Source: an uncultured Bacilli bacterium (GTDB lineage: Bacteria; Bacillota_I; Bacilli_A; RF39; UBA660). Taken from it: a stretch of 64,000 nucleotides of DNA. Below the pieces are notes generated by a model that saw nothing but the letters and a program-made list of their open reading frames with translations, was not told where the DNA came from and ran no database searches. The stretch is taken from contig CANROU010000005.1 of the NCBI GenBank assembly GCA_947632325.1, positions 2,135 to 66,134 of the forward strand. Direction: 5' to 3'. This document shows, piece by piece, positions 3,029 to 32,792 of the stretch. The first letter of the stretch is position 1, and every line of letters begins with the position of its first letter. The position numbers were made by a program, and so were the translations under genes.

Positions 3029-3057
3029 TGACAAAAAAAAACTACTTATGTAGTTTA
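3029..3057 (-). terminator. rho-independent terminator of the 3055-3684 gene
   Basis: Stem ACUAC/GUAGU overlapping the stop codon, followed by a U9 run. Confidence 0.6.
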
Positions 3058-3684
3058 TTTTTTGAAATATGTGTATACTTTAGGCTTATCTATTTGATTT
3101 TGGCTATCATTATAGACTTGTTGTACATAGTTATCAATATGCTCACAATTAGCTTTAGTTTCACTTCGTAAATCAACTGGTTCATTAGTAACATTAGCAT
3201 TTGTTTGTTGCTTATTTTGTTTGATAGATACTAATTCATTACAATAGTTATGTTTTAAGTGATATAATTCCTCCTGGGTATTATATAAAGCTTCTTTTCT
3301 TTTAGCAACCTTTTTCAAGGCCGCATTACAACCAATAAAATACATAGCTGATAATACTGTACCAACTACCCCACCACATATTAAAGACGTAGCTAGAGTG
3401 CTAGCAGTCGCAAATCCTATCACCGGAGAAATTAAAGTACATAAAGGAATCATTAAAAAAGCCAATTTTTTAGTTGTAGTAAACATTTTGCTATCCGCAT
3501 GACAATGTTTGATTTTTTCTTTTACATCATCCAAATTATTATCAACACATTCTATCATATTCTCTACTACTAAAGTTCTTTTCATCTCATCTTGATTCAA
3601 ATTAGAGTATCTAGTAAATACTATTCCCGTTTGATCTGTAACTTCTACCTCATTTTCACCAATATATTTAAATTCTGTATTCAT
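3055..3684 (-). CDS. hypothetical membrane protein (2 central TM helices, coiled-coil C-terminus)
   Basis: 209-aa ORF with its own promoter (TGATATAAT at 3710-3718), RBS GGAGG and terminator. No recognisable family. Confidence 0.5.
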   Translation of the reverse strand: MNTEFKYIGENEVEVTDQTGIVFTRYSNLNQDEMKRTLVVENMIECVDNNLDDVKEKIKHCHADSKMFTTTKKLAFLMIPLCTLISPVIGFATASTLATSLICGGVVGTVLSAMYFIGCNAALKKVAKRKEALYNTQEELYHLKHNYCNELVSIKQNKQQTNANVTNEPVDLRSETKANCEHIDNYVQQVYNDSQNQIDKPKVYTYFKK

Positions 3685-3771: not shown

Positions 3772-4425
3772 TTATTTACATGTTCTGCTAGCTATTTCAA
3801 TAAAAGTTTGCCATAATTTTGCTTGCTTATCATCATAAGAAATCATACTCTCCGGATGCCATTGAACACCTATTTGAAAAGGATGATTAGGATTTTCTAT
3901 AGCTTCAACTAAACCATCATCACTCTTAGCTACCACTTTAAACAATCCCCCACTATTAACATATTCTAAATGTCTACTATTAACTTTTATGTGGTCATTG
4001 TTACCTAATATCATAGATAGATGACTATCTTGTTCAATATCTATATAATGAGAATAATCACTATTATCTTGCAAATGCGAATTGTTTCCAATCAGTTTTA
4101 ATTGCTCCTTACTTTTATAAGTTGCCATTACTTGCATACCAAGGCATATGCCTAAAATCGGCAAATCATGTTTTAAGGCGTACTCTAAAACATAATAATC
4201 ATAATCTGTAGGATGATATCCTCCTGTAATTACAATAGCATCACATTGCTTTAACCAATAACTTAAACGTTTTTTTTCATCATCATTAAAAACAGAACCC
4301 TTACATATGATAAGAGGATTACCCTTATATTTTATAACAGCATCAATATATTCTTGATGTAATTTTAAATTAGCAAATCTTTCCTCTTCATTAATCCTAC
4401 TAACGATACCAATAACTGGTAACAT
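3772..4425 (-). CDS. class I glutamine amidotransferase-like / peptidase C26 (gamma-glutamyl hydrolase, PuuD-like)
   Basis: Nucleophile elbow GICLGMQ and the WHPE histidine motif. RBS TAGGAGAAA overlaps the ddl stop, indicating operon coupling. Confidence 0.7.
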   Translation of the reverse strand: MLPVIGIVSRINEEERFANLKLHQEYIDAVIKYKGNPLIICKGSVFNDDEKKRLSYWLKQCDAIVITGGYHPTDYDYYVLEYALKHDLPILGICLGMQVMATYKSKEQLKLIGNNSHLQDNSDYSHYIDIEQDSHLSMILGNNDHIKVNSRHLEYVNSGGLFKVVAKSDDGLVEAIENPNHPFQIGVQWHPESMISYDDKQAKLWQTFIEIASRTCK

Positions 4426-4435
4426 AACATTTCTC

Positions 4436-5650
4436 CTATCTTTTTAAACCTTTGATTCCTTTAACACCTTTACTACCAGCGTTAAATCCCTCTAAAATAT
4501 TAGTCTCAAACGAATGCACTTTATTTAGCCGTTTTTTATAATCTTTTACGGCTATGTTAATCATATCATCCAATAATTCTGTATATTTTTTACCCGTTGG
4601 TTCCCATAGATAAAAAGCTAAACTACCTGGTATAGAGTTAATTTCATTGATATAAGGTTTATTAGTCTTTTGATCAATTAGGAAATCAATACGACATACT
4701 CCACTAGAGCCAATGACCCTAAAGGCTTTAATAGCAATATCCTCAATTTCCTCTTTCAACTTTTCATCAATACCAGCGGGAATAATACGACTAGCTGATA
4801 ACATACCTTTAGATGCCTTAGAATTATTAAATTTACCCGTTTTTTTGCTACCACCAATGTATTTCTCTTCGTAAGTTAAAAAATCTTTACTAGAGACAAC
4901 CTCTTCTATTTCACTGACACTTTGTACCTCATAATTACCTAAAACACTAATATTTACCTCTTTTAAATTAGACACAATCTCCTCAACTACAATACGATGA
5001 TCATAACGAATAGCGTCAGTTATACCCTCTTGTAATTCTTCATCATCATGAGCCGTATGAATACCAACACTACTACCTAAAGTAGCTGGTTTAATAATAA
5101 CGGGAAATTTTAATTTATGGATTTGCTCTAATACCTTACTACTATCTTGTTTGTAATCAATATCATAAAACCAAGTATATTTAGTAATCGGTAATTTTTC
5201 ACTAGTAAATATTTGTTTCATATAAATTTTATCTTGCCCTGTTACTGAAGCATAGACATTACTACCTACATAAGGAATACCAATTGATTGTAAGTACCCT
5301 TGTAATATACCATCTTCTACATTAGTACCATGTACTATAGGAAAAGCAATATCAATTTCCTGAACAACTCTTTTAATAAAGCCTTTATTTTGTAAAACAA
5401 ACCGTCCCTTTTTATAGTACAATACTACGTTTTTAGCGTATTTTTTAATTAAGGTCATATCCTGATATGTTTCAATATCTCGTAACATTGCCCCTGTATA
5501 CCATTCATTATTTTTAGTAATATAAATAGGTATAATCTCATACTTTTCCTGATCCATTTTATTCATGGCCTGAATAGCCGAAATAATACTAACCTCATGT
5601 TCTACACTTTCTCCCCCAAAAATAACACCTACTCTAATTTTCATAAACAC
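4436..5650 (-). CDS. ddl: D-alanine--D-alanine ligase
   Basis: N-terminal KIRVGVIFGGESVEHEVS, HGTNVEDGILQGYLQSIGIPYVGS and C-terminal EINSIPG...YLWE motifs. It is 404 aa because of an insertion of about 17 aa (YIGGSKKTGKFNNSKASKGMLSASR). Confidence 0.85.
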   Translation of the reverse strand: MFMKIRVGVIFGGESVEHEVSIISAIQAMNKMDQEKYEIIPIYITKNNEWYTGAMLRDIETYQDMTLIKKYAKNVVLYYKKGRFVLQNKGFIKRVVQEIDIAFPIVHGTNVEDGILQGYLQSIGIPYVGSNVYASVTGQDKIYMKQIFTSEKLPITKYTWFYDIDYKQDSSKVLEQIHKLKFPVIIKPATLGSSVGIHTAHDDEELQEGITDAIRYDHRIVVEEIVSNLKEVNISVLGNYEVQSVSEIEEVVSSKDFLTYEEKYIGGSKKTGKFNNSKASKGMLSASRIIPAGIDEKLKEEIEDIAIKAFRVIGSSGVCRIDFLIDQKTNKPYINEINSIPGSLAFYLWEPTGKKYTELLDDMINIAVKDYKKRLNKVHSFETNILEGFNAGSKGVKGIKGLKR

Positions 5651-5655
5651 ACTCC

Positions 5656-7266
5656 CTATTCATTATAAGTATCTGGTAAATCATTTTCAAACAATGCATA
5701 AACACCATTTTTATGTTCCAATGCTTGAATAAATTTATAACTTTCTTTAACATCATTATAAATAATGATTTTATCTTTATTATAATTTTGTTTTTCTAAC
5801 CCTTTATAAATAGCTTTAGTTTGCTTTTTGCCAATTAATACTACAAAATCAGCTACCTTAGCTATTTGTTCACCAAAAGATTCATTATATTCATCCTCTT
5901 GATCACCTAATTCAATCATCCCTGGCGTAACTACAACTTTTAAACCAGGCATCATTTCCAATACATCCAAAGCATTTTTAGCTCCTACGGGATTAGAATT
6001 ATAAGCATCATCTATTTGATAAAAATTACCTAATTTTTTTAACTGTAAACGATGTTCCACAGGTTGAACCATCTTGACTGCCTGTTGTAATTGTTTAATA
6101 GAAATCCCAAACTCATATCCTAAAGCCAAAGCTGCCAAAATATTATAAACATTATGTTTTCCTAATAATTTCGTTTCAAAAGGATATTCTTTATTATCAC
6201 CTTTAAACTTAACCATAAAATTAGTTCCCTGATAACCGCAAGTAATATTAGAAGCTAAAACATCAACATCCTTATTTTCAATACCAATTAATAATATTTT
6301 ACAATTATTTTTTAATTGATAAGACATCTGCTTTTTATCATCACCATTTAATACTCCCACACCATCACTTGGTAACGATTCAATAAGTTCAAATTTCCCT
6401 TGAACGATATTTTCTTCACTACCAAATGTTTCTAAATGAGCTGTACCAATTGTTGTTAAAATACCATATTGTGGATGTACTAATTCACAAAGTCCTCTAA
6501 TCTCACCCTTAACATATGCTCCCATTTCCGCAATAAATATTTCATCAAATTTATCTAAATGATTATTAACAGTTATCATTAAGCCATAATAAGTATTTAA
6601 ATTTTTAGGAGTAGGTCTAGCAATATATTTAATATTTAAAATATCACTCAATATATTCTTACAACTTGTTTTACCATAACTACCAGTTATCCCAATGATT
6701 TTTAAACGATCCATACTTTTAAGTTTATTTTTAGCTTTAGTTTCATAATAATGATATACCATTCGTTCCACAGGATAATTAATTAAATTTGCTAAAAAGA
6801 TGATTATGTAATTAAAATTAATCATGATTGTCAATACAAGTATACTTAATAATACTGTCTGCTTATTATCCCAATTAAATAATAGTATTAATATCGGTAA
6901 CAAATGCAAGATAGTAATTGTTACTATTAATCGTTTAATACGAGCTGTAATAACCAACGGCTTTTTTTCTTGGGCTTTTTTATGTTCATAATGTAAAAAG
7001 AATATTCTAAATAAATAGATAAATATGATTAGTAGTATAATTACTAAAGATAATATATGACGCTTATAAGTAAATAAGCTCATAATTAAAACCAACACGA
7101 TAGCAATTATTTCCACACTAAATAATTGTTTTTTATTTTTCCAAATCCATCGTCCATAACGATTATTTTCGTTATACAGATTTTGTTGTAACATATGTAA
7201 CCCTTTTTTAGATTTCACTATTAATAAAAGAAATAACGTTATTAACAACAAAATATAAATAAACAT
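5656..7266 (-). CDS. murF: MurF-like Mur ligase (central and C-terminal domains) fused to an N-terminal polytopic membrane domain of about 185 aa
   Basis: GITGSYGKTS P-loop at residue ~195, DDAYNSNPVGAKNALDVL, and a MurF-like C-domain. Residues 1-185 form about 5 hydrophobic helices and there is no canonical MurF N-domain. A strong RBS AAGGAGGA lies 8 nt before the ATG at 7266. Confidence 0.7.
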   Translation of the reverse strand: MFIYILLLITLFLLLIVKSKKGLHMLQQNLYNENNRYGRWIWKNKKQLFSVEIIAIVLVLIMSLFTYKRHILSLVIILLIIFIYLFRIFFLHYEHKKAQEKKPLVITARIKRLIVTITILHLLPILILLFNWDNKQTVLLSILVLTIMINFNYIIIFLANLINYPVERMVYHYYETKAKNKLKSMDRLKIIGITGSYGKTSCKNILSDILNIKYIARPTPKNLNTYYGLMITVNNHLDKFDEIFIAEMGAYVKGEIRGLCELVHPQYGILTTIGTAHLETFGSEENIVQGKFELIESLPSDGVGVLNGDDKKQMSYQLKNNCKILLIGIENKDVDVLASNITCGYQGTNFMVKFKGDNKEYPFETKLLGKHNVYNILAALALGYEFGISIKQLQQAVKMVQPVEHRLQLKKLGNFYQIDDAYNSNPVGAKNALDVLEMMPGLKVVVTPGMIELGDQEDEYNESFGEQIAKVADFVVLIGKKQTKAIYKGLEKQNYNKDKIIIYNDVKESYKFIQALEHKNGVYALFENDLPDTYNE

Positions 7267-7269
7267 AAC

Positions 7270-8001
7270 CTAATCCTCCTTTAAGAACGCTAATAAAATT
7301 TTATATACTTGTGGTAAATTATCTAAATAAGCATAATGTCCTAATCCTGCTAACACAACTAATCCTGCATCAGGTATTATTTTTTCTAATTCCCGAGCTT
7401 CATCAACGGGAGCTTCTGTATCCAATTCTCCCCATATCAATAAAGTAGGAACCATAATATTTTTAGCACAATCAGTTAAATCTTGATTTATTACATTAAC
7501 TAAAGTTTGTCGCATAATTGGTGAAGCTGCTTTATAATCACGAGAACCAATGTAATTCTTGGCCACCTCTGCTAAATTATTTAAAAAAGGAATCTTTTTT
7601 AACGCTTTTAATGTTTTTTCTTTAGTCGTCAATTCCCTATTACGCATACAAGGGCTACCAAACAAACATAATTTATGTACTTTGTAATTAGCACTATATG
7701 CAATAGCAACTCTTCCTCCAAATGAATGTCCCATTAAAATAGGCTTTTTTACTTTTAATTCTTTTAAGAAAAGATTCAAACAATCTACATAATCATCAAT
7801 ACTCCAAGGTTCAACTGGCTCCTTGCTTTCACCAAAACCAGGTAAGTCTAAAATAGTAATTTTATATTTATCTTGGAACAAATCCCCTAAGGGACGCATC
7901 ATGGCTATATTTTGTCCCCAACCATGTAATAATACAATATCTTGGGTGCCATTACCATATTGTATGTAATTAATGTCAATATCTTTAACATTCTTTCTCA
8001 T
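7270..8001 (-). CDS. alpha/beta-fold hydrolase
   Basis: HGWGQN oxyanion region and GHSFGG nucleophile elbow. It is the first gene of the operon with murF-ddl-C26. Confidence 0.7.
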   Translation of the reverse strand: MRKNVKDIDINYIQYGNGTQDIVLLHGWGQNIAMMRPLGDLFQDKYKITILDLPGFGESKEPVEPWSIDDYVDCLNLFLKELKVKKPILMGHSFGGRVAIAYSANYKVHKLCLFGSPCMRNRELTTKEKTLKALKKIPFLNNLAEVAKNYIGSRDYKAASPIMRQTLVNVINQDLTDCAKNIMVPTLLIWGELDTEAPVDEARELEKIIPDAGLVVLAGLGHYAYLDNLPQVYKILLAFLKED

Positions 8002-8018: not shown

Positions 8019-8047
8019 ATTATAGCAACATTTTAATTGTTTGACAA
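8019..8047 (-). promoter_or_regulatory. sigma-A promoter TTGTCA-N17-TATAAT for the hydrolase-murF-ddl operon
   Basis: Minus strand reads TTGTCAaacaattaaaatgttgcTATAAT, followed by RBS GGAGTGAG. Confidence 0.5.
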
Positions 8048-12495: not shown

Positions 12496-13332
12496 TTAGC
12501 TCATCTCTAAATCATTAATCTTAACAATATATTTTTGATTTTTTATACAAAAATCAATAAAACCACGTAAATCTGTCTTCTTTAATTCTGTTTCAATCGC
12601 ATATTTATCCGCATCAAAAGCTATTTTATCTCTCATCATATAACGAATCATACTTTCTTTATCAGCACCTAAATACATAAGCCAATAAGGATAGATTTGT
12701 CTTTTTAAAAATTTCAAAGTTGGATCGCCACCAATTAAATAGTGACTGTGTTCATCTAACTGGGTAGCAAATTCATTTAATATAGCCAACTCTAAAACAG
12801 CTTGAACAATTTCTTTATAATCGTCATTATAATGTTGTAATTCTCTTTTTATAATACCATAAATTAATTCTGTTAAAATAGTCACCGATCTTGTTTTTAT
12901 ATTCTCTTTACCATAAACTAAAGCATGAACCGATGGTTTAGTAGCATAATCAATAACATTTAAATTAGGATGAACAACTAAAACTTTATAAGAATTAAGA
13001 TCAAAACGCAATATCTCTTTTAATATCTTACTAACATCTTTTTTATTTTTATCCCAAATTTTAAGTAAATATAATCGATATTTATCAGTTTCTTTTTTTA
13101 TAGTTTCATATGAATTAGTTTCAAAAAACAAATTATATAATGTATCATCATCAGGAATAAAATTTTTTTCATCCGCTAAAATCAATTGTTGATCGTTTTG
13201 AATACGCACATATTGCTTGCGATAATTAAGCCATAAACGTTGTTTCAATTTATGTGTACTCTCAGAAATAGACGGTCCAAATAAAAGATTCCAAATTAAC
13301 ATATAATCATTAACTATAAACGTAATATTCAT
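12496..13332 (-). CDS. hypothetical protein directly upstream of polC and probably co-transcribed
   Basis: 278-aa ORF ending 11 nt before the polC start. No recognisable motifs. Confidence 0.45.
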   Translation of the reverse strand: MNITFIVNDYMLIWNLLFGPSISESTHKLKQRLWLNYRKQYVRIQNDQQLILADEKNFIPDDDTLYNLFFETNSYETIKKETDKYRLYLLKIWDKNKKDVSKILKEILRFDLNSYKVLVVHPNLNVIDYATKPSVHALVYGKENIKTRSVTILTELIYGIIKRELQHYNDDYKEIVQAVLELAILNEFATQLDEHSHYLIGGDPTLKFLKRQIYPYWLMYLGADKESMIRYMMRDKIAFDADKYAIETELKKTDLRGFIDFCIKNQKYIVKINDLEMS

Positions 13333-15404: not shown

Positions 15405-16484
15405 TTAATCTTGTAAATGGAAAAACTTTAAGATACGATGTAACCAATTTTCCTTAGTTTTATTTATAGATACATATATAGGAATAGTTTTTAGATTTTG
15501 ATCATTTAAAGATACCGTCACCACTCCAACTTGATCATTATTCTTATAATTTTTTAATTCTTCAATTTGTAATAAAACTTTGACCTTAGATGCTTCACTT
15601 TCTGTTAAAGGATAAGCAAAAGATTCTTTAACATATACTTTATCCGTATAAAAATTTTGATCAATATAAAAATTATTTTTATCAATTATGTCATATTTTT
15701 GATAATTTTTAAAACCATATTCATAAAGATTAGTATGTGAATCATATTCATTAGCATCATTTAAGGTAACAGCTGTCAAATTAAGCGCATTTTTAGAAGC
15801 CGTCGTCACTAGAGTTCTCCCTGCACTTGGAGTATAACCTGTTTTACCACCGGTCGCATATTCATAACTATTTAATAATTTATTACGGTTGTACCATAGA
15901 TAAGTCTTACCATCACCTTTTACTACATATTTTTTAGTTTTAGTTATTTCCTTATATTCTTCTAAACTAGAAGCATAACTAGATAATTTAGCCATATCCA
16001 AAGCTGTTGAATAATTTTGAGTTACCTCATCTAAGCCATGACAGTTGTTAAATATCGTATTCGTCATTCCAATCTCTTTAGCTTTGTCATTCATCATTTT
16101 AACAAAATTTTCTTCACTTCCCCCAATATAAGTAGCAATAACCACAGCAGCATCATTGCCGCTTCTTAAAAGCAGGCCATACAATAGATCACGCAACGAC
16201 ATTTTTTCGTGTAATTCTAAATAAATATTAGAGCCATACATAGCTAATATTTCTTCACCAACAGTAACAATATCATCTAAATTTCCTTTCTCAATAGCGA
16301 TAGTCGCAGTCATTATCTTAGTTATGGACGCTATCAATCGCTTTTCATCAGGATTTTTTTGATATAATATTCTACCACTATCAATGTCCATTAATACTGC
16401 ACTACTTCCCGTAACGGTCACTGCCCGAACTTTTACAGGACAAAATATTAACAACATCAATATTACTAGCACAATTTTTTTCAT
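15405..16484 (-). CDS. dacA: D-alanyl-D-alanine carboxypeptidase (PBP5/DacA-type)
   Basis: Signal peptide and SITKIMT (SxxK), SGN, KTG motifs. Confidence 0.8.
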   Translation of the reverse strand: MKKIVLVILMLLIFCPVKVRAVTVTGSSAVLMDIDSGRILYQKNPDEKRLIASITKIMTATIAIEKGNLDDIVTVGEEILAMYGSNIYLELHEKMSLRDLLYGLLLRSGNDAAVVIATYIGGSEENFVKMMNDKAKEIGMTNTIFNNCHGLDEVTQNYSTALDMAKLSSYASSLEEYKEITKTKKYVVKGDGKTYLWYNRNKLLNSYEYATGGKTGYTPSAGRTLVTTASKNALNLTAVTLNDANEYDSHTNLYEYGFKNYQKYDIIDKNNFYIDQNFYTDKVYVKESFAYPLTESEASKVKVLLQIEELKNYKNNDQVGVVTVSLNDQNLKTIPIYVSINKTKENWLHRILKFFHLQD

Positions 16485-17147: not shown

Positions 17148-17858
17148 CTAATTAATTGGAATTTGACTTTCTAATTCCAAAATATAAACGGTTTGTTTTG
17201 TATCATCTTGATATGTACAAGTTATTAAAGTCATAGTAGTCTTATCATAATTTCTTCTTAAAGCAATAGTTCCTGTCTTCTCTTCATAATAAATATTTAC
17301 TAAACGATATTGATAACGAATATTATTATATTCTACATATGCCACATCTCCTACTTCTAATTGATAAAGATTACGAAAGAAAGAAATAGCCGCTGTGCCA
17401 GAGTGCGCAACTAAAATGAAATTACCTTTATCAACATCAGGATAAGTAGAACTAGGTAAAGTTGTTACAGCATAATTGATATTATTATAACGAGAATCTT
17501 TTTGAACAAAACCCCTTTTAAAATTTATTTTAGGAATTTCTAACGTTCCAACATAAGGAATATTAATTGGTTCATCATCTTTGGATAATTCTCCTGTTGT
17601 TTCTTCTTCTAAATTTTCAACATCAGGACTATTGTTTATTTTACTATCGTTTTTATGATTTAATGATGCTAGCTGTAAATTCATTGTTTCAAATACATCA
17701 ATTTTCTTTTGTTGCAAATATGAATAAGAGAATAAGACAACGCCAATAACAACAAGGAAAGAGCCAATTACAATGAATTGTCCCTTATTGTTTTTATCAT
17801 TACGCTTTAGCTTTTTTTGTATTGACATAAACGATTCCAACTCCTCCCGCAATGACAA
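17148..17858 (-). CDS. srt: sortase (transpeptidase)
   Basis: N-terminal TM anchor, catalytic LVAHSG histidine and TLITC cysteine motif. Overlaps the adhesin gene 3' end by 59 nt, so the true start may be internal. Confidence 0.8.
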   Translation of the reverse strand: MSLREELESFMSIQKKLKRNDKNNKGQFIVIGSFLVVIGVVLFSYSYLQQKKIDVFETMNLQLASLNHKNDSKINNSPDVENLEEETTGELSKDDEPINIPYVGTLEIPKINFKRGFVQKDSRYNNINYAVTTLPSSTYPDVDKGNFILVAHSGTAAISFFRNLYQLEVGDVAYVEYNNIRYQYRLVNIYYEEKTGTIALRRNYDKTTMTLITCTYQDDTKQTVYILELESQIPIN

Positions 17859-20181
17859 TAATACCTAAGATATATACTATAACTGGCGTATCTTTAGCTG
17901 TATCTGGAACAGGAATCGTTGGTACATTATAGAAAACAACTGGTTGAATATCGCCACTATCCAAAACTTCAAACGTTACTTCATTAGTATTTGGTGCATA
18001 ACCATCAGGCACAATAGTTTCAGTTAAAGTATACTTACCCTGTGGTAAACGCTCAATTAAGTGATCTTCATCAGTTGACACCCACTCATCAATAACATTT
18101 CCCTTACTATCCTTAAGTTGCAAAGTTGCCCCTGGTATTTCCTCTTCATTAGAAATATCACGTTTACTAATAGCTACTTTGGTAAAATCATTAGGAATCA
18201 TAATCGACATATCCGTACCTGTTATATCAAATGGTATCTCTTTATAGCTTATTTTATAACCATCTACAGCTTCTTGAGTAAGAATGTATGAACCATTAGA
18301 TAGATTAGAAATCTTATGAGCTACCCCTGAAGATGATGATGTCCACTTATCGATACTTTCATTAGTATTAGCTGTTTTTACTTCAAAATTAATACCTTCG
18401 ATACTAGTTTGTATAGTCACAGTGTTTCCAACGACATTAACACTAACATAATCAGAACTTAATACTACTTTTTGAACCTTTCCATCATTGCTAACTTGGA
18501 AGGTAATTGGATTATTATTTAATATATATCCACTAGGCGCTTCTACTTCTTGTAATGTATAAGTACCTACGGGGATCTTAGCAATCTTAGTTGGTTGTTT
18601 AGTAGTTACCACTCGATATTTTACCTGTCCAGAAGCATCTTTTATTTCTAAAGTAGCTCCCGCCACTAATTCACCTGTTGAAGCATCTACTTTACTAACT
18701 GTAATAGCTGTATATTCATTTTCTACAACAATTTCTTGCGTTGCTGTCTCAGCCGTTTCATTAACAGTAAATTTTTGTGGAGTGGTATTAATGATATATC
18801 CTTCCGGTGCTTGTGTTTCTTTAATTTGATATGTACTACCCTTTGCTAATCCATAAATATGATGACTAGAACCATTAGTAACCCACGTGTCAATAACCCT
18901 AGTACCTGTTTCATCTAAAACTTGCAAAGTTACACCACTTACATTATTACCATCTTTATCTTTTTTGATAACAGCTACATCTGTTGGTGTATTCTCTATT
19001 TCTATAGTAACTGTCTTATCACCAACTAAATCATCAGCTGTTACAGTAAAATCTTTATACGCCTGATTGCTTCTATAGCCAAGTGGTGCTTGTTCTTCTT
19101 TGATTCTATAATTACCCTGTCCAAGATCATCACGACAAACTTTAGTATTAGTTGATAAGAAACTAGCTCCTTTTGCCTCATCACAATTATCAGCAGTACA
19201 TAGATAGATTTTTAACTTAGCACCAGCTATATATTTACCAGTTTTAGAATCTTTTTTAGCAAAACAGATGCCTGTTGATGGTATACTTAGCGTTAAACTA
19301 GCTTCTTTTGATTCCTGCTTATTTTTAAATAAATATACTACACTCTGATAACCGTCAGCATAATACGTATTAGCACTACTATAATCAGCATAATTAGCTA
19401 CTACTTTAACATCGATAGTATAACCTACACCAGCATTAGCTACTGGATAACGTACTTTAAATTTATCACCATTGTTAAAAGTCTGTTTTCTACTACCACC
19501 TTCATCAACGATTTCTCCTGCTTGGGAAGCATTAGAATCTAAACTAACTTGTATACTACTAACATCACTACTAGTTGTAACAGTGATTAAATTAGATTCG
19601 AAATAATCACCATTTTTACTCATTTCCATATTGTTACCATCAATAGTCAAATTAACATAAGGAGTTGCAGGTGCTCCAGAACTAGCCGTTTTAGCTTTAT
19701 TTACTAATTGTTTTACATAAGTACCATAGGTCGCATGATTATATATCGCAGAACGTTCTTCTTCCGTAAAATTATTGCCCCCTTGTACTTCATCCATATA
19801 ACACCATACAGCAAGTTGCATTAAATATGGTCTTGCTTGACTATCAACAGCACTAAGTATTTGAGTATCAGTTAACATTGTAGCTAATTGATAAGCATAA
19901 GCTGTTCCTTCTTCAGCTGGATGATAGTACACCCACGGCACTGGTAAACTTAACTTCCTTTGTAAACAATAGACATTCTCCCCTGTTGTATCAATAATAA
20001 TTTGATCAAATTCTATACCGTTAACATAACTTTCTTGATGTTTAAGTTCTTTTACTTGAAAACCACCATCAACAGCCAAAGAAGTAGAATTAAAACCAAT
20101 AAGTACTACCGAAGTTAATATAACAGCAATCAATAATACATTTACTATAAAAGTTCTATTCTTTTGTAATGCATTCTTCAC
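17800..20181 (-). CDS. cell-wall-anchored adhesin: N-terminal thioester domain (TED) plus 4 Cna-B/prealbumin-like stalk domains plus C-terminal sorting signal
   Basis: Signal peptide. YCLQ (thioester Cys) and MQLAVW (thioester Gln) motifs. Repeats GAKLKIY, GVTLQV, GATLEIKD, GATLQLKD. C-terminal VPDTA-hydrophobic-KKAKA. GTG start with RBS AGAGGTGAG. Confidence 0.75.
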   Translation of the reverse strand: MKNALQKNRTFIVNVLLIAVILTSVVLIGFNSTSLAVDGGFQVKELKHQESYVNGIEFDQIIIDTTGENVYCLQRKLSLPVPWVYYHPAEEGTAYAYQLATMLTDTQILSAVDSQARPYLMQLAVWCYMDEVQGGNNFTEEERSAIYNHATYGTYVKQLVNKAKTASSGAPATPYVNLTIDGNNMEMSKNGDYFESNLITVTTSSDVSSIQVSLDSNASQAGEIVDEGGSRKQTFNNGDKFKVRYPVANAGVGYTIDVKVVANYADYSSANTYYADGYQSVVYLFKNKQESKEASLTLSIPSTGICFAKKDSKTGKYIAGAKLKIYLCTADNCDEAKGASFLSTNTKVCRDDLGQGNYRIKEEQAPLGYRSNQAYKDFTVTADDLVGDKTVTIEIENTPTDVAVIKKDKDGNNVSGVTLQVLDETGTRVIDTWVTNGSSHHIYGLAKGSTYQIKETQAPEGYIINTTPQKFTVNETAETATQEIVVENEYTAITVSKVDASTGELVAGATLEIKDASGQVKYRVVTTKQPTKIAKIPVGTYTLQEVEAPSGYILNNNPITFQVSNDGKVQKVVLSSDYVSVNVVGNTVTIQTSIEGINFEVKTANTNESIDKWTSSSSGVAHKISNLSNGSYILTQEAVDGYKISYKEIPFDITGTDMSIMIPNDFTKVAISKRDISNEEEIPGATLQLKDSKGNVIDEWVSTDEDHLIERLPQGKYTLTETIVPDGYAPNTNEVTFEVLDSGDIQPVVFYNVPTIPVPDTAKDTPVIVYILGIIVIAGGVGIVYVNTKKAKA

Positions 20182-20992: not shown

Positions 20993-21030
20993 CTAAAAAA
21001 TACAACTTTTTAATCAGTTGTATTTTTTAC
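20993..21030 (-). terminator. aspS (operon) terminator
   Basis: 9-bp stem AAUACAACU/AGUUGUAUU with the stop codon in the loop, followed by a U-run. Confidence 0.65.
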
Positions 21031-22785
21031 ATTAGTTACATTTTGCTCTCTTATTTTAATATGAACCTCACGCAATTGTTTTTCATCTACTTCACTTGGA
21101 CTATCCATCAAAGCATCAGCGCCACTAGCTTGTAGAGGAAACGCAATGGTATCTCTAATACTTTTAGTATCCTTTAACATCATTAACATTCTGTCAATTC
21201 CAGGTGCCATTCCAGCATGTGGCGGTGCTCCATAACCAAATGCTGTATACAAGGCCTTAAATCTTCTAGCAATTTCTTCTTCATCATATCCCGCAATGGC
21301 AAAACATTGTTTCATAATTTCTAAATCATGATTGCGCACAGCACCACTAGCTATTTCAATACCATTACATACAAAATCAAATTGATAAGCTAATATATTC
21401 TCTGGTGTATCTTTTAAGGCAGTAAAATCATTTTTAGGCATAGAGAAAGGATTATGCATAAAATCCCATTTTTCTAATTCCTCGTTCCATTGATACATTG
21501 GGAAATCATTAACAATACAAAATTCAAAACGATTATCATCTAATAAATTTAATTTTCTACCCAATTCATCACGAATTTGCCCGGCTAGGGAAGCAGCATA
21601 TTTACGATCAGCAATAAAGAATAAAACGCTTCCCTCTTTTAAACCAGCTCGTGAAATTAAATTATCTCTTTCTTCATCACTTAAAAATTTATCAATAGGG
21701 CCTTTAAAAGTACCATCTTCTTGCATAGTAATATAACCAATACCTGGCATACCAATACTTTTAGCAAAATCAACTACTTCATTGAACCAAGAATTAGATT
21801 TGCTTGCCAAATCATCAACTTTAATACCTCTTACTACCACATTACGAAAAGGTTTAAAAGCGGTATCTTCGAAGACATCTGTCAAATCTATAATAACTAA
21901 AGGATTACGTAAATCTGGTTTATCTGTTCCATATTTTAACATAGCTTCCTTATAACTTATTCTAGGAAATGGTAATTTTGTGATTAATTTATCTGAAAAT
22001 TTGTTAAAAGTTTCATAAAATAATTTTTCTCCCAAATTTAATACATCATCTTCTTCGGCAAAACACATTTCGAAATCTAATTGATAAAATTCCCCATATA
22101 TACGATCATTTCGAGCATCTTCATCACGGAAACAAGGCGCAATTTGAAAATATTTATCAAAGCCCGAACACATTAATAACTGCTTAAATTGTTGTGGTGC
22201 TTGAGGTAAAGCATAAAACTTACCATGAAATTTACGAGATGGCACTAAAAAGTCGCGCGCTCCCTCTGGTGATGAGCTTGTTAAAATAGGTGTTTGAATT
22301 TCTAAAAAACCCTCACTTTTCATAAAATCACGTAAAAAATCAATTACCTGACTACGAAAAACAATATTTTCCTTTACTCGAGGATTACGAAGATCAAGAT
22401 AACGATACTTTAAACGTACATCTTCAGATACTTCATGTGAAGTCATAACTTCAAAAGGTAAAACATGATGACTTTTACCTAAAACGTCAATAGTTTTAGC
22501 CAAAATCTCAATAGTGCCTGTTTTAATTCTAGGATTATAATCATCCTCGCTTCTTTGCCTTACTGTCCCTGTTAACATAACACATGATTCTCTACTAATG
22601 CCTTTAAAGAAATCATCCTCATTACTAACTACTTGAACAGTACCATATTGATCACGGACATCCACAAAAATAACCCCGCCATGATCTCTAATATTTTCAA
22701 CCCAGCCGGCTACCTTAACTTCTTTACCTACTTCTTTTTCTGTTAAATCACCACAATAAGTAGTACGATATTTATTTTCTCTCAT
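21010..22785 (-). CDS. aspS: aspartate--tRNA ligase, probably non-discriminating
   Basis: 591 aa with class II motifs (FRDE, GMAPGIDR), an OB fold and a GAD insertion. It is the last gene of the gatCAB operon, overlapping gatB by 14 nt. Confidence 0.93.
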   Translation of the reverse strand: MRENKYRTTYCGDLTEKEVGKEVKVAGWVENIRDHGGVIFVDVRDQYGTVQVVSNEDDFFKGISRESCVMLTGTVRQRSEDDYNPRIKTGTIEILAKTIDVLGKSHHVLPFEVMTSHEVSEDVRLKYRYLDLRNPRVKENIVFRSQVIDFLRDFMKSEGFLEIQTPILTSSSPEGARDFLVPSRKFHGKFYALPQAPQQFKQLLMCSGFDKYFQIAPCFRDEDARNDRIYGEFYQLDFEMCFAEEDDVLNLGEKLFYETFNKFSDKLITKLPFPRISYKEAMLKYGTDKPDLRNPLVIIDLTDVFEDTAFKPFRNVVVRGIKVDDLASKSNSWFNEVVDFAKSIGMPGIGYITMQEDGTFKGPIDKFLSDEERDNLISRAGLKEGSVLFFIADRKYAASLAGQIRDELGRKLNLLDDNRFEFCIVNDFPMYQWNEELEKWDFMHNPFSMPKNDFTALKDTPENILAYQFDFVCNGIEIASGAVRNHDLEIMKQCFAIAGYDEEEIARRFKALYTAFGYGAPPHAGMAPGIDRMLMMLKDTKSIRDTIAFPLQASGADALMDSPSEVDEKQLREVHIKIREQNVTNVKNTTD

Positions 22786-24226
22786 TATCTTTCCTCTTTT
22801 CTAATTCTTTTACAATCAAGTCAAGAGTTAACACAGGATCTGCTTGCCTATTAGTCTTCTGCATTACTTTTCCTACAAAAAAGTTCTTGACATAATCTTT
22901 TCCTTCTTTTATATATTGATCAACTTGTAAAGGATTTTCTTCAAGAGCATCTTTTACATGCTGTAAAATTATTTGATCATCTTTAATTTGTTCAATATTA
23001 TTTTCTTTAATGATATCTATTGGATCCTTTTTTTCTTTGATAGCTTGATAAATAATTTTTTTACCATGATTTAATGATATTTTATCTTCATTTATCAATT
23101 TAAGAACACCCGCTAACATCTTAGGCGTTATAAAAAATTCTTCCAAGGTAATATCTAATTTATTAAGGGTACCTAAAACAACAGTCATTACCCAGTTGGC
23201 TACACTTTCAATTGGTTTAGCACCTTCCTTAATTACAGCTTCAAAATAATCAGCAATACCTTTATCTTTAGCTAAAACACTAGCATCATAAAAACTTAAG
23301 CCATAATCTTGTTGGTAATTTTTGATACGTTCAAATTCTAATACTGGAATTTCTTGTCTAATACTATCTAAATATTCTTTACTTAATTTAACAGGTGGAA
23401 TATTAGGTTCAATAAAATATTTATAATCAATAGCATCTACCTTTTCTCGCATAGGATAGGTTTTGCCATCTTCATCAATTCTTCTTGTTTCCTGTTTAAC
23501 TTTGCCTCCTTGATCCAAGATCTCTGTTTGTCTTTTAATTTCATAATCAATAGCCGCTCTTACACTGGTAAAAGCATTGATGTTTTTCATCTCCACTTTA
23601 GTGCCTAATTTATCATCATCTGGTTTCATCAAAGAAATATTAACATCACATCGCATTTGCCCTTTATCACTTCTAGCATCGCTAACTTGACAATACAAGA
23701 AAACATTACGAAGAGCTTCCAAAAAACTGATGGCTTCATCACTTGAGGTTATACATGGTTCTGTAACAATTTCCATTAAAGGAATACCACTACGATTATA
23801 ATCAATCAATGAATAATTATTATAATGTTCTAAAGAGGCCGTATCTTCTTCCAAGTGTAATTGATGAATAAAAATCCTTTTTTCTTCTTCACCAACAAAA
23901 ATATCTAGATACCCATTAATACCACATGGTTTAGTTACTTGGGTAATTTGATATCCTTTAGGTAAATCAGGATAAAAATAATTCTTACGATCAAAAATAA
24001 CTTCATCAGGATTTTGACAGTTCAAAGCCATAGCGGTCTTTAAAGCTTTTCTTACAGCTTCTTTATTAGGAACAGGTAATATTCCTGGCAATCCCATATC
24101 AACTGTTGCAACATGTTCATTAGGAACAGTTGAATAAGTATTAAGACTATTTGAAAAATTTTTGGTTTTTGTCTTTAATTCACAATGAACCTCTAAACCA
24201 ATAACTACCTTATACAATTTTATCAC
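22772..24226 (-). CDS. gatB: Asp/Glu-tRNA amidotransferase subunit B
   Basis: 484 aa GatB/YqeY family with the typical N-terminus LEVHCEL and a C-terminal YqeY domain. Confidence 0.95.
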   Translation of the reverse strand: MIKLYKVVIGLEVHCELKTKTKNFSNSLNTYSTVPNEHVATVDMGLPGILPVPNKEAVRKALKTAMALNCQNPDEVIFDRKNYFYPDLPKGYQITQVTKPCGINGYLDIFVGEEEKRIFIHQLHLEEDTASLEHYNNYSLIDYNRSGIPLMEIVTEPCITSSDEAISFLEALRNVFLYCQVSDARSDKGQMRCDVNISLMKPDDDKLGTKVEMKNINAFTSVRAAIDYEIKRQTEILDQGGKVKQETRRIDEDGKTYPMREKVDAIDYKYFIEPNIPPVKLSKEYLDSIRQEIPVLEFERIKNYQQDYGLSFYDASVLAKDKGIADYFEAVIKEGAKPIESVANWVMTVVLGTLNKLDITLEEFFITPKMLAGVLKLINEDKISLNHGKKIIYQAIKEKKDPIDIIKENNIEQIKDDQIILQHVKDALEENPLQVDQYIKEGKDYVKNFFVGKVMQKTNRQADPVLTLDLIVKELEKRKDNERK

Positions 24227-26224: not shown

Positions 26225-26231
26225 AGTTAAG

Positions 26232-31459: not shown

Positions 31460-31496
31460 TATTAGAAAATATGAAAACCCTTCATATGAAGGATTA
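31460..31496 (-). terminator. murC terminator
   Basis: Palindrome CCUUCAUAUGAAGG then a U-rich tract. Confidence 0.55.
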
Positions 31497-32792
31497 TAAT
31501 TCTTGATAACTTTTAATTAAATGCGAGGTATCAGCACAACTCATAAAACAAATGACCGCATTATTAACTTCTTTTAACTGATCAATTGTTTGTTCGCTAA
31601 TAATGTGACTGTTAGGAATTTTATCTAAAATTAATTTACTAGTAACATTAGGATAATCTTCTTGTTTTTCTCTATTCGAATCGATTTCAGTTAAATACAC
31701 CTCATCAGCTATTTCTAGAGCTTTTTTAAAATCATCAGCCATTTCTACTGTTCTAGAGAAAGTATTAGGTTTAAAAATCGCAATTAGATGCCTATTAGGA
31801 TATTTTTGTCTAGCCGATAACAAGGTTACTTTAATTTCTGTTGGATGATGGGCATAATCTTCAATGATGATATTACCTTTGCAAGAGGATTCTTTAAATC
31901 GTTTCTTAGCATTTACGAAAGTAGTAAATAATGATTGTATGGTATCAGCTTTAATATTTTTTAAGTAACAATAACTAATGCATGCTAGAGCGTCTAATAC
32001 CATATGTTTGCCAAATAAAGGAACACTAAAATGACCATAGAAATTTTGATGAATATAAACATCAAAACTACTACCTACCTCATCTAAAACTACTTCTTTA
32101 GCTATAACATCATTATTTTCATGAAAGCCATAAAATAAAGGCGGCATTTTAAAACTAATCTTACGAATATTTTCATCATCGCCACAGGCAATTATACCTT
32201 TTTTAGCTTTATTAGCGAATATGGCAAAATGATTAATAATATCGTCTAATCCGTTATAACATTCTGTATGCTCCAACTCAATATTAGTAATTACAGCATA
32301 ACTTGGAGTATAAGCCATAAAATGTTTTTGATATTCACATGATTCTAAAACAAAAATATTATTCTTTTTATCAGCAAAGCCACTACCATCACCAATAAAA
32401 TAATTACAACCACCATTATGAGTTAAAATATGCTTAATTAAAGAGCTAGTTGTCGTTTTACCATGAGTACCTGCTACACAAACAGTTTCAAATTGACAGG
32501 TTAAATCACCTAATAATTCATGATAAGTTTTAATGGTAAGTCCTGCTTCCTTTACTCGCATAAGTTCCTTATGATCAGGTGAAAAAGCAGCTGAATAAGT
32601 TACTATCATATCTTTATCTAATGGATGACTTTGATCATAGTAAATAGGAATATGCCTTTTATCTAAACCATCTTGGGTAAATTTATATTCTCTAACATCA
32701 TCGTAACCTTTAACCTCATTACCTAAATCATATAAAATTTGTGCTAAAGCGCTCATACCAGAACCTTTAATACCTATACAATAATATTTCAT
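31494..32792 (-). CDS. murC: UDP-N-acetylmuramate--L-alanine ligase
   Basis: GIKGSGMSALA N-domain and GTHGKTTTSSL P-loop. 432 aa. Confidence 0.9.
   Translation of the reverse strand: MKYYCIGIKGSGMSALAQILYDLGNEVKGYDDVREYKFTQDGLDKRHIPIYYDQSHPLDKDMIVTYSAAFSPDHKELMRVKEAGLTIKTYHELLGDLTCQFETVCVAGTHGKTTTSSLIKHILTHNGGCNYFIGDGSGFADKKNNIFVLESCEYQKHFMAYTPSYAVITNIELEHTECYNGLDDIINHFAIFANKAKKGIIACGDDENIRKISFKMPPLFYGFHENNDVIAKEVVLDEVGSSFDVYIHQNFYGHFSVPLFGKHMVLDALACISYCYLKNIKADTIQSLFTTFVNAKKRFKESSCKGNIIIEDYAHHPTEIKVTLLSARQKYPNRHLIAIFKPNTFSRTVEMADDFKKALEIADEVYLTEIDSNREKQEDYPNVTSKLILDKIPNSHIISEQTIDQLKEVNNAVICFMSCADTSHLIKSYQEL

What the first reader, a model, noticed from the sequence alone, without database searches (positions are those of the whole stretch)
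3772..8001. MurF-like ligase with a polytopic membrane N-terminus replacing the canonical N-domain, in an operon with ddl, an alpha/beta hydrolase and a C26 gamma-glutamyl hydrolase-like protein
The 536-aa ORF has an unambiguous MurF central and C-terminal region (GITGSYGKTS, DDAYNSNPVGAKNAL). Its first 185 residues are about 5 hydrophobic helices rather than the soluble N-domain of about 90 aa that contacts the UDP moiety. The start is well supported: ATG at 7266 with AAGGAGGA 8 nt upstream and no alternative internal RBS. A membrane-embedded Mur ligase suggests action at the membrane, possibly on lipid-linked or already exported precursors. The Ddl partner carries a 17-aa insertion near the omega-loop. 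A C26 gamma-glutamyl hydrolase-type amidase and an alpha/beta hydrolase are co-transcribed (promoter at 8019-8047, RBS overlaps). This gene set is not described as a unit.
Basis: partly seen in the sequence, partly recalled or inferred. Interest (0 to 1): 0.6.

Follow-up and report, generated by a model that had tools for sequence, protein, structure and literature searches.

The report
Membrane-embedded MurF cell-wall ligase operon
This gut bacterium's MurF, the enzyme that adds the last two D-alanines to the cell-wall precursor, is built into the membrane and lacks its usual nucleotide-binding domain; the form is widespread but barely described and always sits beside its own D-Ala-D-Ala ligase and a serine hydrolase of unknown role.

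Summary
ORF 5656-7266 (- strand, 536 aa) has MurF-type central and C-terminal domains. Five predicted membrane helices replace the soluble N-domain. It is co-oriented and tightly packed with an alpha/beta hydrolase, a long-form Ddl and a C26 amidase.

It is not rare. The N-terminal region defines a family of at least 486 clusters at 50% identity, found in at least 442 species genomes. Members occur in small-genome uncultured gut Bacilli, cultured halophilic Bacillaceae and Clostridia.

The catalytic domains form their own clade, apart from canonical MurFs (60/60 bootstraps).

The conserved unit is hydrolase, TM-MurF and long Ddl (77/77 and 10/10 loci). The C26 gene is optional (35/68).

Charge distribution places the ligase in the cytoplasm, so action on exported precursors is excluded. 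The same genomes encode canonical MurC, MurD and MurE. The likeliest role is therefore ordinary D-Ala-D-Ala addition at the membrane face.

Literature already notes four N-terminal TM helices in H. pylori MurF and a ddl / hydrolase / murF cluster in C. jejuni.

Two questions remain open: whether a second canonical murF exists, and whether the acceptor is UDP-linked or lipid-linked.

The parts
8019..8047 (-). Promoter-like site (TTGTCA, 17-nt spacer, TATAAT, TG before the -10) upstream of the hydrolase gene
   Evidence: 11 of 12 consensus matches. It lies in the 100-nt gap after polC. It is a consensus match only, and such sites are not enriched over shuffles.
7270..8001 (-). Alpha/beta serine hydrolase (243 aa), the conserved upstream partner of TM-MurF. 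Its closest curated family is the EstV family lipase.
   Evidence: Pfam Abhydrolase_1/6. NF058580 EstV scores 122.5 bits over the full length, below the cut-off of 300. EstV is the top family for all 8 partner hydrolases tested. Ser93 (GHSFGG), Asp194 and His222 are invariant across lineages. The gene is present upstream in 77/77 loci with room.
5656..7266 (-). TM-MurF (536 aa): a membrane-integral D-Ala-D-Ala-adding enzyme
6709..7266 (-). N-terminal membrane domain (residues 1-186). It has five TM helices (about 2-18, 53-66, 72-90, 112-130, 138-160), and a long helix 152-184 runs into the ligase domain.
   Evidence: Hydropathy; charge bias; AF2 helices; no PDB fold relative (best Foldseek E 3.6); no similarity to canonical domain 1.
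7147..7197 (-). Conserved cytoplasmic loop-1 motif: H24-M-L-Q27-x-N-x-Y31 ... W40
   Evidence: H24, Q27 and Y31 are invariant and N29 and W40 nearly so in 89 sequences. This motif was used to find 442 species genomes.
6931..6966 (-). Conserved basic cytoplasmic loop-3 motif: K101-K-P-L-V-x-T107-x-R109-x-K-R112
   Evidence: K101, T107, R109 and R112 are invariant.
6766..6780 (-). Conserved N163-x-P165-x-E167 motif just after TM5
   Evidence: P165 is invariant; N163 and E167 are nearly invariant.
6667..6693 (-). P-loop GITGSYGKT of the Mur central domain
   Evidence: G192, T194-S196 and G198-T200 are invariant; Pfam Mur_ligase_M.
5989..6012 (-). MurF-type C-domain motif DDAYNSNP
   Evidence: D419, D420, N423 and N425 are invariant. 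It aligns to DDSYNANP of P. aeruginosa MurF.
4436..5644 (-). Long-form D-Ala-D-Ala ligase (402 aa from ATG 5644; the ORF lister starts it at GTG 5650)
   Evidence: Pfam Dala_Dala_lig_N/C. NF002528 scores 303.6 bits, above the cut-off of 262. The gene is downstream of TM-murF in essentially all loci.
4790..4858 (-). Gly/Lys/Ser-rich insertion after the omega-loop K-Y of Ddl, containing a conserved K-G-M
   Evidence: 17 gap columns against S. aureus Ddl 2i80. G280 and M281 are invariant across three lineages.
4439..4519 (-). Conserved C-terminal tail of Ddl (SF-x-TNIL ... G-x-K-G-x-K)
   Evidence: It extends beyond the end of the solved Ddl structures. K392, G393 and K395 are invariant.
3772..4425 (-). 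Class-I glutamine-amidotransferase-like / peptidase C26 protein (217 aa). It is co-transcribed here but is a lineage-specific add-on.
   Evidence: Pfam PF07722 105 bits and PF00117. Closest solved structures are Lin1909 (3fij) and PuuD. Present after ddl in 35/68 related loci and 0/10 in other lineages.
31494..32792 (-). Context: canonical MurC with the ordinary N-terminal Mur_ligase domain
   Evidence: Pfam PF01225 + PF08245 + PF02875. TIGR01082 scores 328 bits against a cut-off of 335.
15405..16484 (-). Context: S11 D-Ala-D-Ala carboxypeptidase, which consumes pentapeptide stems
   Evidence: Pfam Peptidase_S11 226 bits; DacA/DacD-like.

Best explanation
The gene most likely encodes this bacterium's working MurF (D-Ala-D-Ala-adding enzyme). 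It belongs to a deep, separate MurF subfamily.

**Shown.**
- The soluble domain 1 is replaced by a five-helix membrane domain.
- Three conserved, basic, cytoplasm-facing segments together make up about 80 residues, roughly the size of the lost domain: H24..Q27..Y31..W40, KKPLVxTxRVKR, and NxPxE.
- The ligase domains hang in the cytoplasm from a helix continuous with TM5.
- The gene is always flanked by a catalytically intact EstV-like serine hydrolase and a specialised long-form Ddl.
- Canonical MurC is encoded in this window, and canonical MurD and MurE are encoded in relatives.

**Inferred.**
- The long Ddl supplies D-Ala-D-Ala.
- TM-MurF joins it to the mDAP carboxylate of UDP-MurNAc-tripeptide at the inner face of the membrane, next to MraY, which consumes the product.
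- The conserved loops take over the role of domain 1 in holding the nucleotide-diphosphate end of the substrate.
- The hydrolase is an obligate helper. Editing or esterase activity is a guess.
- The C26 amidase is a local accessory.
For: **MurF identity.**
- MurF is the best family by a wide margin: TIGR01143 233 bits against 90 bits or less for MurC/D/E models.
- The top structural matches are MurF crystal structures, with about 366 aligned columns.
- The P-loop, E247, H277, K291 and DDAYNSNP are invariant.

**Housekeeping role.**
- The setting is housekeeping: polC lies upstream, ftsK downstream, and the promoter-like site is of sigma-70 type.
- Genomes of relatives are small, about 1.3 Mb.
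- Canonical MurC is in the window. Canonical MurE and MurD lie near the trio in relatives.
- An S11 D,D-carboxypeptidase and YceG/MltG are in the window.
- Published genome surveys predict mDAP-type peptidoglycan in RF39 (PMC10868615, PMC7301438).

**Topology.** The positive-inside pattern holds across 89 sequences.

**Separate subfamily.** TM-MurFs are monophyletic in 60/60 bootstraps. They are 28% identical on average to canonical MurFs and 50% among themselves.

**Precedent.** H. pylori MurF is described as essential, catalysing the final cytoplasmic step, an inner-membrane protein with four N-terminal TM domains (PMC9448923, PMC9507126). C. jejuni murF sits beside a probably essential alpha/beta hydrolase and near ddl (PMC5530802).
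Against: - No whole genome could be scanned, so a second, canonical murF in the same organism is not excluded. The cultured carriers have 4.5-Mb genomes.
- Loss of the domain that normally holds the UDP end fits a non-nucleotide (lipid-linked) acceptor equally well.
- Homology between this membrane domain and the H. pylori one was not tested, because no sequence was available.
The position of the conserved loops relative to the active site is inferred from the secondary-structure order only.
- No biochemical data exist for any member.
Confidence: 0.6

Rival explanations
1. Same enzyme chemistry but a lipid-linked acceptor. MraY first transfers MurNAc-tripeptide to undecaprenyl phosphate. TM-MurF then adds D-Ala-D-Ala to lipid I or lipid II tripeptide at the inner leaflet, with the membrane domain binding the polyprenyl-diphosphate.
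For: - Domain 1, which normally holds the UDP end, is gone without trace.
- Conserved Lys/Arg-rich loops sit at the membrane interface.
- The ligase is rigidly joined to TM5.
- From established knowledge: the other Mur-fold ligase known to act on lipid II, MurT, also lacks domain 1. MurT/GatD structures appear among the fold matches.
Against: - All TM cores are poorly conserved. Every invariant residue of the N-region is on the cytoplasmic side, and none lies within the bilayer.
- Canonical MurC/D/E show that a UDP-linked tripeptide pool exists.
- H. pylori MurF is described in the literature as doing the standard step.
- There is no direct evidence either way.
Confidence: 0.17
2. An accessory paralogous module (hydrolase + TM-MurF + long Ddl) working beside a canonical Ddl-MurF pair. 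It might act under particular conditions such as sporulation or cortex synthesis, envelope stress, or salvage of tripeptide precursors.
For: - The catalytic domain is no closer to canonical Bacillaceae MurF (25-28%) than to E. coli MurF (29%).
- The distribution is patchy across Bacilli and Clostridia.
- In Alkalihalobacillus deserti the neighbours are not core housekeeping genes.
- The trio moves as a self-contained cassette.
Against: - The gene is single-copy and syntenic within lineages: next to sigW-cdaA-glmM-glmS in three halophilic genera, and after polC in several small-genome Bacilli.
- It is present in about 1.3-Mb genomes, where redundancy is unlikely.
- No canonical MurF lies in the 64-kb window or in any of the roughly 100 flanks examined.
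Confidence: 0.15
3. The ligase attaches D-Ala-D-Ala (or another Ddl product) to a carboxylate on a different membrane-associated molecule, not the peptidoglycan stem peptide.
For: Below-threshold score to the curated MurF model. Unexplained esterase-type partner. Unusual Ddl with an insertion and a tail.
Against: The MurF-specific C-domain motif and central-domain residues are fully conserved. MurF crystal structures are the best fold matches. The low score is explained by the missing 72 profile positions alone.
Confidence: 0.05
4. Artefact: a separate small membrane-protein gene fused to murF by a frameshift or a wrong start.
For: None found. Some database fragments begin at Met25.
Against: - The reading frame is continuous.
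- 120 homologues cover 96-100% of the protein.
- Full-length members are always 504-559 aa.
- AF2 models a continuous helix from TM5 into the ligase.
Confidence: 0.01

Closest known systems
Canonical MurF (UDP-MurNAc-tripeptide:D-Ala-D-Ala ligase; TIGR01143; structures 1GG4, 4CVK, 4QF5, 3ZL8)
   Same: Central ATP-binding and C-terminal domains, all catalytic motifs, the DDxYNxNP motif, linkage to ddl, and best sequence and fold matches.
   Different: - It has no domain 1. A roughly 185-aa five-helix membrane domain with conserved basic loops stands in its place.
- It forms a separate clade, about 28% identical to canonical MurFs.
- Gene order is hydrolase-murF-ddl, not the ddl-murF-helicase order of Bacillus, Anoxybacillus and Lysinibacillus.
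- The C-domain motif is TPGMxELG. From memory, canonical MurFs have GDMxELG here.
Helicobacter pylori MurF (HP0740) and the C. jejuni ddl (Cj0798c) / alpha-beta hydrolase (Cj0796c) / murF (Cj0795c) cluster
   Same: - H. pylori MurF is reported as an inner-membrane protein with N-terminal TM helices and is the essential final-step enzyme (PMC9448923, PMC9507126).
- An alpha/beta hydrolase lies next to murF and close to ddl and is probably essential (PMC5530802).
- The partner hydrolase here is closest to the H. pylori EstV family.
   Different: - Four TM helices and 494 aa (1485 bp, PMC6501431) are reported there, against five TM helices and 536 aa here.
- The phylum is different.
- Sequence homology of the membrane domains and of the loop motifs was not tested, because no epsilonproteobacterial sequence was available.
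- That the EstV gene (HP0739) lies between ddlA and murF in H. pylori rests on my memory only.
MurT/GatD lipid II isoglutaminyl synthase
   Same: A Mur-fold ligase lacking domain 1, encoded next to a class-I glutamine-amidotransferase-like protein and acting at the membrane. MurT structures appear among the fold matches.
   Different: - The MurT model scores only 17 bits.
- The C-domain here is MurF-type, not DUF1727.
- The amidotransferase-like gene is C26/PF07722 rather than the GatD type, and it is absent from half of the related loci and from all other lineages.
Natural Mur fusion proteins (MurE-MurF, MurC-Ddl, MurG-MurC, MurD-FtsW)
   Same: Covalent rearrangements of Mur enzymes, thought to favour channelling of precursors towards the membrane (PMC10214165).
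   Different: That survey lists no membrane-domain MurF. Here a domain is replaced rather than a second enzyme added.

Membership tests
MurF (TIGR01143 / EC 6.3.2.10) | Mur central domain with ATP-binding P-loop | tested here: met
   PF08245 136.6 bits at residues 193-382. GITGSYGKT is invariant.
MurF (TIGR01143 / EC 6.3.2.10) | C-terminal domain with the MurF-type DDxYNxNP motif | tested here: met
   PF02875 37.6 bits. DDAYNSNP aligns to DDSYNANP of P. aeruginosa MurF and is invariant in the family.
MurF (TIGR01143 / EC 6.3.2.10) | Soluble N-terminal domain 1 (about 80-100 aa) that holds the UDP end of the substrate | tested here: not met
   No PF01225 hit. TIGR01143 aligns from profile position 73 only. 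PDB MurFs align from query residue 176-190. hhalign against a canonical domain-1 profile gives probability 0.07%.
MurF (TIGR01143 / EC 6.3.2.10) | Score at or above the curated family cut-off | tested here: not met
   233.4 bits against a cut-off of 288.6. The shortfall is consistent with the missing 72 positions.
MurF (TIGR01143 / EC 6.3.2.10) | Best structural similarity to solved MurF structures | tested here: met
   Foldseek ranks 1-10 are all MurF, with E values from 9e-26 to 1e-21.
MurF (TIGR01143 / EC 6.3.2.10) | Catalyses addition of D-Ala-D-Ala to UDP-MurNAc-tripeptide | not testable with these tools
   Needs an enzyme assay or complementation.
Membrane-anchored MurF as reported for H. 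pylori | N-terminal transmembrane helices preceding the ligase domains | tested here: met
   Five TM helices here. Four are reported for H. pylori (PMC9448923).
Membrane-anchored MurF as reported for H. pylori | Sequence homology of the membrane domain and clade membership with HP0740/Cj0795c | not tested
MurT/GatD | MurT-type ligase (DUF1727 C-domain) paired with a GatD-type amidotransferase | tested here: not met
   NF052464 MurT scores 17.2 bits against a cut-off of 800. The C26 partner is optional.
D-alanine--D-alanine ligase (NF002528 subfamily) | Score above the curated cut-off, with the omega-loop Lys-Tyr retained | tested here: met
   303.6 bits against 262. K261 and Y262 are invariant in A7. 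Specificity for D-Ala rather than D-Lac or D-Ser is inferred from the retained Tyr.
EstV family lipase (NF058580) | Score above the equivalog cut-off | tested here: not met
   122.5 bits against 300. It is nevertheless the top family for all 8 partner hydrolases, with best E 4.6e-42.
EstV family lipase (NF058580) | Ser-Asp-His catalytic triad of an alpha/beta hydrolase | tested here: met
   S93, D194 and H222 are invariant.
Peptidase C26 / gamma-glutamyl hydrolase-like class-I amidotransferase | Pfam PF07722 above the gathering score | tested here: met
   105.1 bits against 20.5. The PuuD equivalog scores 64.5 against 266, so it is not PuuD itself.

The most novel reading that the evidence does not exclude
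TM-MurF has swapped its nucleotide-binding domain for a membrane domain because its acceptor is lipid-linked (undecaprenyl-PP-MurNAc-tripeptide). In these bacteria, and perhaps in Helicobacter and Campylobacter, the order of the MraY and MurF steps would then be reversed. The invariably co-encoded, catalytically intact EstV-like hydrolase would be an essential third component of D-Ala-D-Ala addition.
Probability: 0.15. Interest if true: 0.85.

Novelty: new member of a known kind. Interest (0 to 1): 0.42.

Why it matters
MurF is taught as a soluble cytoplasmic enzyme with a UDP-binding domain, and it is an antibiotic target.

Here a whole deep-branching subfamily has lost that domain, is built into the membrane, and is locked to a specialised Ddl and a serine hydrolase of unknown role. 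It occurs in hundreds of species, including abundant uncultured gut Bacilli and cultivable halophilic Bacillaceae.

This gives a natural system, with cultivable hosts, for three questions:
- How are the last cytoplasmic and first membrane steps of peptidoglycan synthesis coupled?
- Can D-Ala-D-Ala be added to a lipid-linked precursor?
- What does the probably essential MurF-linked hydrolase of Campylobacter and Helicobacter do?

It also explains why automated pathway reconstructions can score murF below threshold in these lineages.

Tried and rejected
1. **Frameshift or wrong start.** Rejected on full-length conservation.
2. **phmmer of the catalytic part against window ORFs.** It found no other Mur ligase, but this was a false negative for the distant paralogue MurC, found later by Pfam. 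It still argues against a canonical MurF in the window, since phmmer finds PDB MurFs at E 1e-25 to 1e-34.
3. **Genome scan with the 19-sequence N-region alignment.** A 7-sequence alignment worked, but it used the only genome-collection scan, so no genome could be searched for a second murF.
4. **Profile search with the N-region.** It returned mainly truncated fragments and no taxonomy.
7. **MurT/GatD-like reading of ligase + C26.** Rejected.
8. **Plasmid-collection tblastn.** It gave only canonical MurFs from residue 143 or later (the MurF hits from about 176-190) and generic hydrolases at 22-33% identity, with no Campylobacterota. The hydrolase downstream of Lysinibacillus murF is only a generic relative (22% identity).
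9. **Literature.** The supplement of PMC10868615 has no murF/K01929 entry. The EstV paper and Blair 2018 are not held. Walking beyond the window end gave only short contigs.

Full report
**1. Observation**

The four ORFs lie on the - strand as described: alpha/beta hydrolase 7270-8001, ligase 5656-7266 (536 aa), Ddl 4436-5650 and C26 protein 3772-4425.

The gaps between them are 3, about 11 and 10 nt, and each start has a ribosome-binding site:
- AAGGAGGA lies 7 nt before ATG 7266.
- GGAG precedes ATG 5644, which fits homologues better than the GTG 5650 chosen by the ORF lister.

A TTGTCA-17-TATAAT site with a TG extension sits at 8047-8019, in the gap after polC. Such matches are not enriched over shuffled sequence.

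Evidence on the ligase itself:
- Pfam finds Mur_ligase_M (193-382) and Mur_ligase_C (405-516) but no N-terminal Mur domain.
- The curated MurF model TIGR01143 aligns only from its position 73 and scores 233 bits, under the 288.6 cut-off. It is still far above any MurC, MurD or MurE model.
- Solved MurF structures align from query residue 176-190 onward. They are the top ten fold matches of an AlphaFold2 model with mean pLDDT 90.5.
- A profile of canonical MurF domain 1, built from six annotated MurFs, has no detectable similarity to the N-region (hhalign probability 0.07%).

**2. The membrane domain**

Hydropathy gives five hydrophobic helices in residues 1-160. AlphaFold2 models them confidently. 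A helix spanning 152-184 runs without a break from TM5 into the first strand of the ligase domain.

Mean net charge across 89 family members:

| Segment | Net charge |
|---|---|
| Loop 1 | +4.1 |
| Loop 3 | +5.4 |
| Post-TM5 linker | +2.4 |
| N-terminus, loop 2, loop 4 | about 0 |

By the positive-inside rule the protein is N-out/C-in, and the ATP-dependent ligase is cytoplasmic. This excludes action on exported precursors.

The invariant and nearly invariant residues of the N-region all lie in the cytoplasmic segments: H24, Q27, N29, Y31, W40; K101, K102, T107, R109, K111, R112; N163, P165, E167. The bilayer-spanning cores vary freely. The membrane domain is therefore more than an anchor. It presents a conserved, basic, cytoplasm-facing platform of about 80 residues where domain 1 would sit. 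That this platform binds the diphosphate end of the substrate is inference.

The domain has no relative among solved structures (best Foldseek E 3.6).

**3. How common it is**

- The N-region alone finds 486 clusters (50% identity representatives) at E <= 0.001 among 1.84 billion proteins. Every full-length hit is 515-559 aa, that is, membrane domain plus ligase.
- A strict loop-1 motif finds relatives in 442 species-level genomes. The best 80 are all uncultured 'Bacilli / Tenericutes / Mycoplasmatota' MAGs, including a 1.31-Mb circular genome. Cluster members sit on contigs of up to 1.34 Mb. Assigning these to the order known as RF39 is my inference from record titles and the literature.
- A profile of distant members also recovers cultured halophilic Bacillaceae: Salicibibacter cibarius, Salibacterium, Alteribacillus, Geomicrobium, Salsuginibacillus, Natribacillus and Alkalihalobacillus deserti. 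It also recovers Acutalibacteraceae MAGs (Clostridia).
- On the catalytic 348 columns, 15 TM-MurFs form one clade in 60/60 neighbour-joining bootstraps. Eight canonical MurFs (Bacilli, Clostridia, Fusobacterium, E. coli) form another in 59/60.
- TM-MurFs average 50% identity to each other and 28% to canonical MurFs. The Salicibibacter protein is no closer to Bacillus MurF (28%) than to E. coli MurF (29%).

The form is therefore an old, separate MurF lineage and not a recent local accident. The taxon sample is small and the method simple.

**4. The conserved gene set**

In the 80 related loci:
- The hydrolase is immediately upstream in 77 of 77 cases with room.
- Ddl is immediately downstream in essentially all.
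- The C26 gene follows in only 35 of 68.

In ten loci from seven other organisms the hydrolase-TM-murF-ddl trio is always present and C26 never is. In those loci and in the window the hydrolase stop and murF start range from an 8-nt overlap to a 26-nt gap.

The partner hydrolase keeps Ser93 (GHSFGG), Asp194 and His222 invariant. Its closest curated family, for all eight partners tested, is the H. pylori EstV lipase family. EstV is a short-chain carboxylesterase in vitro (PMC3741291).

The partner Ddl is a distinct long form. It passes the NF002528 cut-off and keeps the omega-loop Lys-Tyr. Both features are shared across the three lineages.

By contrast, canonical Bacillaceae show ddl-murF (followed by a helicase gene in B. 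thuringiensis), and Monoglobus shows murE-murF-mraY.

**5. What it most probably does**

- The window encodes a canonical MurC with its normal N-domain, an S11 D-Ala-D-Ala carboxypeptidase and YceG/MltG.
- Relatives encode canonical MurE (mDAP type, above cut-off) and MurD a few kb from the trio.
- Matching short contigs show a PASTA kinase just beyond the window.
- Published genome surveys predict mDAP-type peptidoglycan for RF39 (PMC10868615, PMC7301438).

The organism therefore makes UDP-MurNAc-tripeptide in the usual way and needs a MurF. This gene is the only MurF-like one seen in the window and in the roughly 100 flanks examined. The economical reading is that it is the housekeeping D-Ala-D-Ala-adding enzyme, working at the membrane face beside MraY.

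The accessory-paralogue reading keeps some weight, especially for the 4.5-Mb Bacillaceae. A lipid-linked acceptor is compatible with the lost UDP-binding domain and the basic interfacial loops. It has no positive evidence, and the lack of conserved intramembrane residues argues mildly against a lipid-binding groove.

**6. What is already known**

- A broad survey of Mur fusion proteins does not mention a membrane-domain MurF (PMC10214165).
[quoted passage not shown] It describes it as essential and as catalysing the final cytoplasmic step (PMC9448923; PMC9507126).
- Its gene is 1485 bp, about 40 codons longer than E. coli murF (PMC6501431).
- In C. jejuni, murF (Cj0795c) lies next to an alpha/beta-fold hydrolase (Cj0796c). 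That hydrolase could not be deleted and tracks MurF abundance. Ddl (Cj0798c) lies just upstream (PMC5530802).

The partner hydrolase here is closest to the EstV family. The window's trio is therefore most likely the Firmicute counterpart of that module. I could not obtain an epsilonproteobacterial sequence to test homology of the membrane domains, so this link is a strong lead and not a result.

**7. Verdict**

The thing is a member of a widespread, deep-branching, membrane-integral MurF subfamily. Its existence has been noted in H. pylori. I found no description in the literature I could search of its family-level features: loss of domain 1, conserved cytoplasmic loop motifs, an obligate EstV-like hydrolase and long-form Ddl partners, and wide presence in Firmicutes.

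Its function is probably ordinary in outcome. The open points are the acceptor (UDP-linked or lipid-linked) and the role of the hydrolase. Both are testable in cultivable carriers.

Noticed in passing
window 31494-32792 (-): Canonical MurC with a normal N-domain scores 328 bits, just under the TIGR01082 cut-off of 335. My phmmer screen with the MurF catalytic part missed it, so single-sequence screens for Mur paralogues are unreliable here.
   Followed up: yes
window 26004-26225 (-): A T-box leader (118 bits, above the Rfam gathering score) lies upstream of the Amidase/GatA (24210-25670), GatB (22772-24226) and class-II Asp/Asn-type tRNA synthetase (21010-22785) genes. This suggests tRNA-sensed control of a gatCAB-aspS operon.
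   Followed up: no
window 4439-4519 and 4790-4858 (-); alignment A7: The Ddl partnered with TM-MurF has a conserved Lys/Gly C-terminal tail (G-x-K-G-x-K) and a K-G-M inside its insertion, shared from small-genome Bacilli to Bacillaceae and Clostridia. These could be docking or membrane-contact elements. Nothing is known about them.
   Followed up: partly
window 1-64000: Nearly every ORF of 100 aa or more is on the - strand, and GC skew is negative throughout. This is the strong leading-strand gene bias typical of low-GC Firmicutes. The window is about 29% G+C.
   Followed up: no
window 17800-20181 and 32878-34440 (-): A 793-aa protein has five SpaA (prealbumin-like) repeats, typical of Gram-positive pilins and adhesins. 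A 520-aa protein starts with a prokaryotic N-terminal methylation (type IV pilin-like) motif.
   Followed up: no
window 3055-3684 (-): A 209-aa protein with a hydrophobic stretch and no family in Pfam or NCBIfam lies directly downstream of the operon. It has its own promoter-like site (3738-3710). It is not conserved next to the trio in related loci.
   Followed up: partly
window 12496-13332 (-); L003, L050, L070, L077, L079: A 278-aa protein with no Pfam family is conserved immediately upstream of polC in several related genomes.
   Followed up: no
L099 (Fusobacterium vincentii NZ_CP084075.1, filed as a plasmid of 2.1 Mb): The open frame containing canonical murF is 607 aa from its first Met and begins with a HAD-phosphatase-like sequence (MKKAIFLDRDGTIN...). 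This is either a HAD-MurF fusion or just an in-frame upstream gene. Several 'plasmid' records in this collection are clearly whole chromosomes.
   Followed up: no
L082, L083, L087 (Salicibibacter, Salibacterium, Geomicrobium): In the halophilic Bacillaceae the trio lies upstream of the cdaA-ybbR-glmM-glmS cluster (preceded by sigW-rsiW-like genes in Salibacterium and Geomicrobium). In two of them it follows nagA/nagB-like genes. It is thus embedded in a cell-envelope precursor neighbourhood.
   Followed up: partly
L101 2044-2736 (Lysinibacillus fusiformis): An alpha/beta hydrolase also follows canonical ddl-murF here. It is only 22% identical to the window's hydrolase, so it is probably unrelated to the EstV-like partner.
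   Followed up: yes
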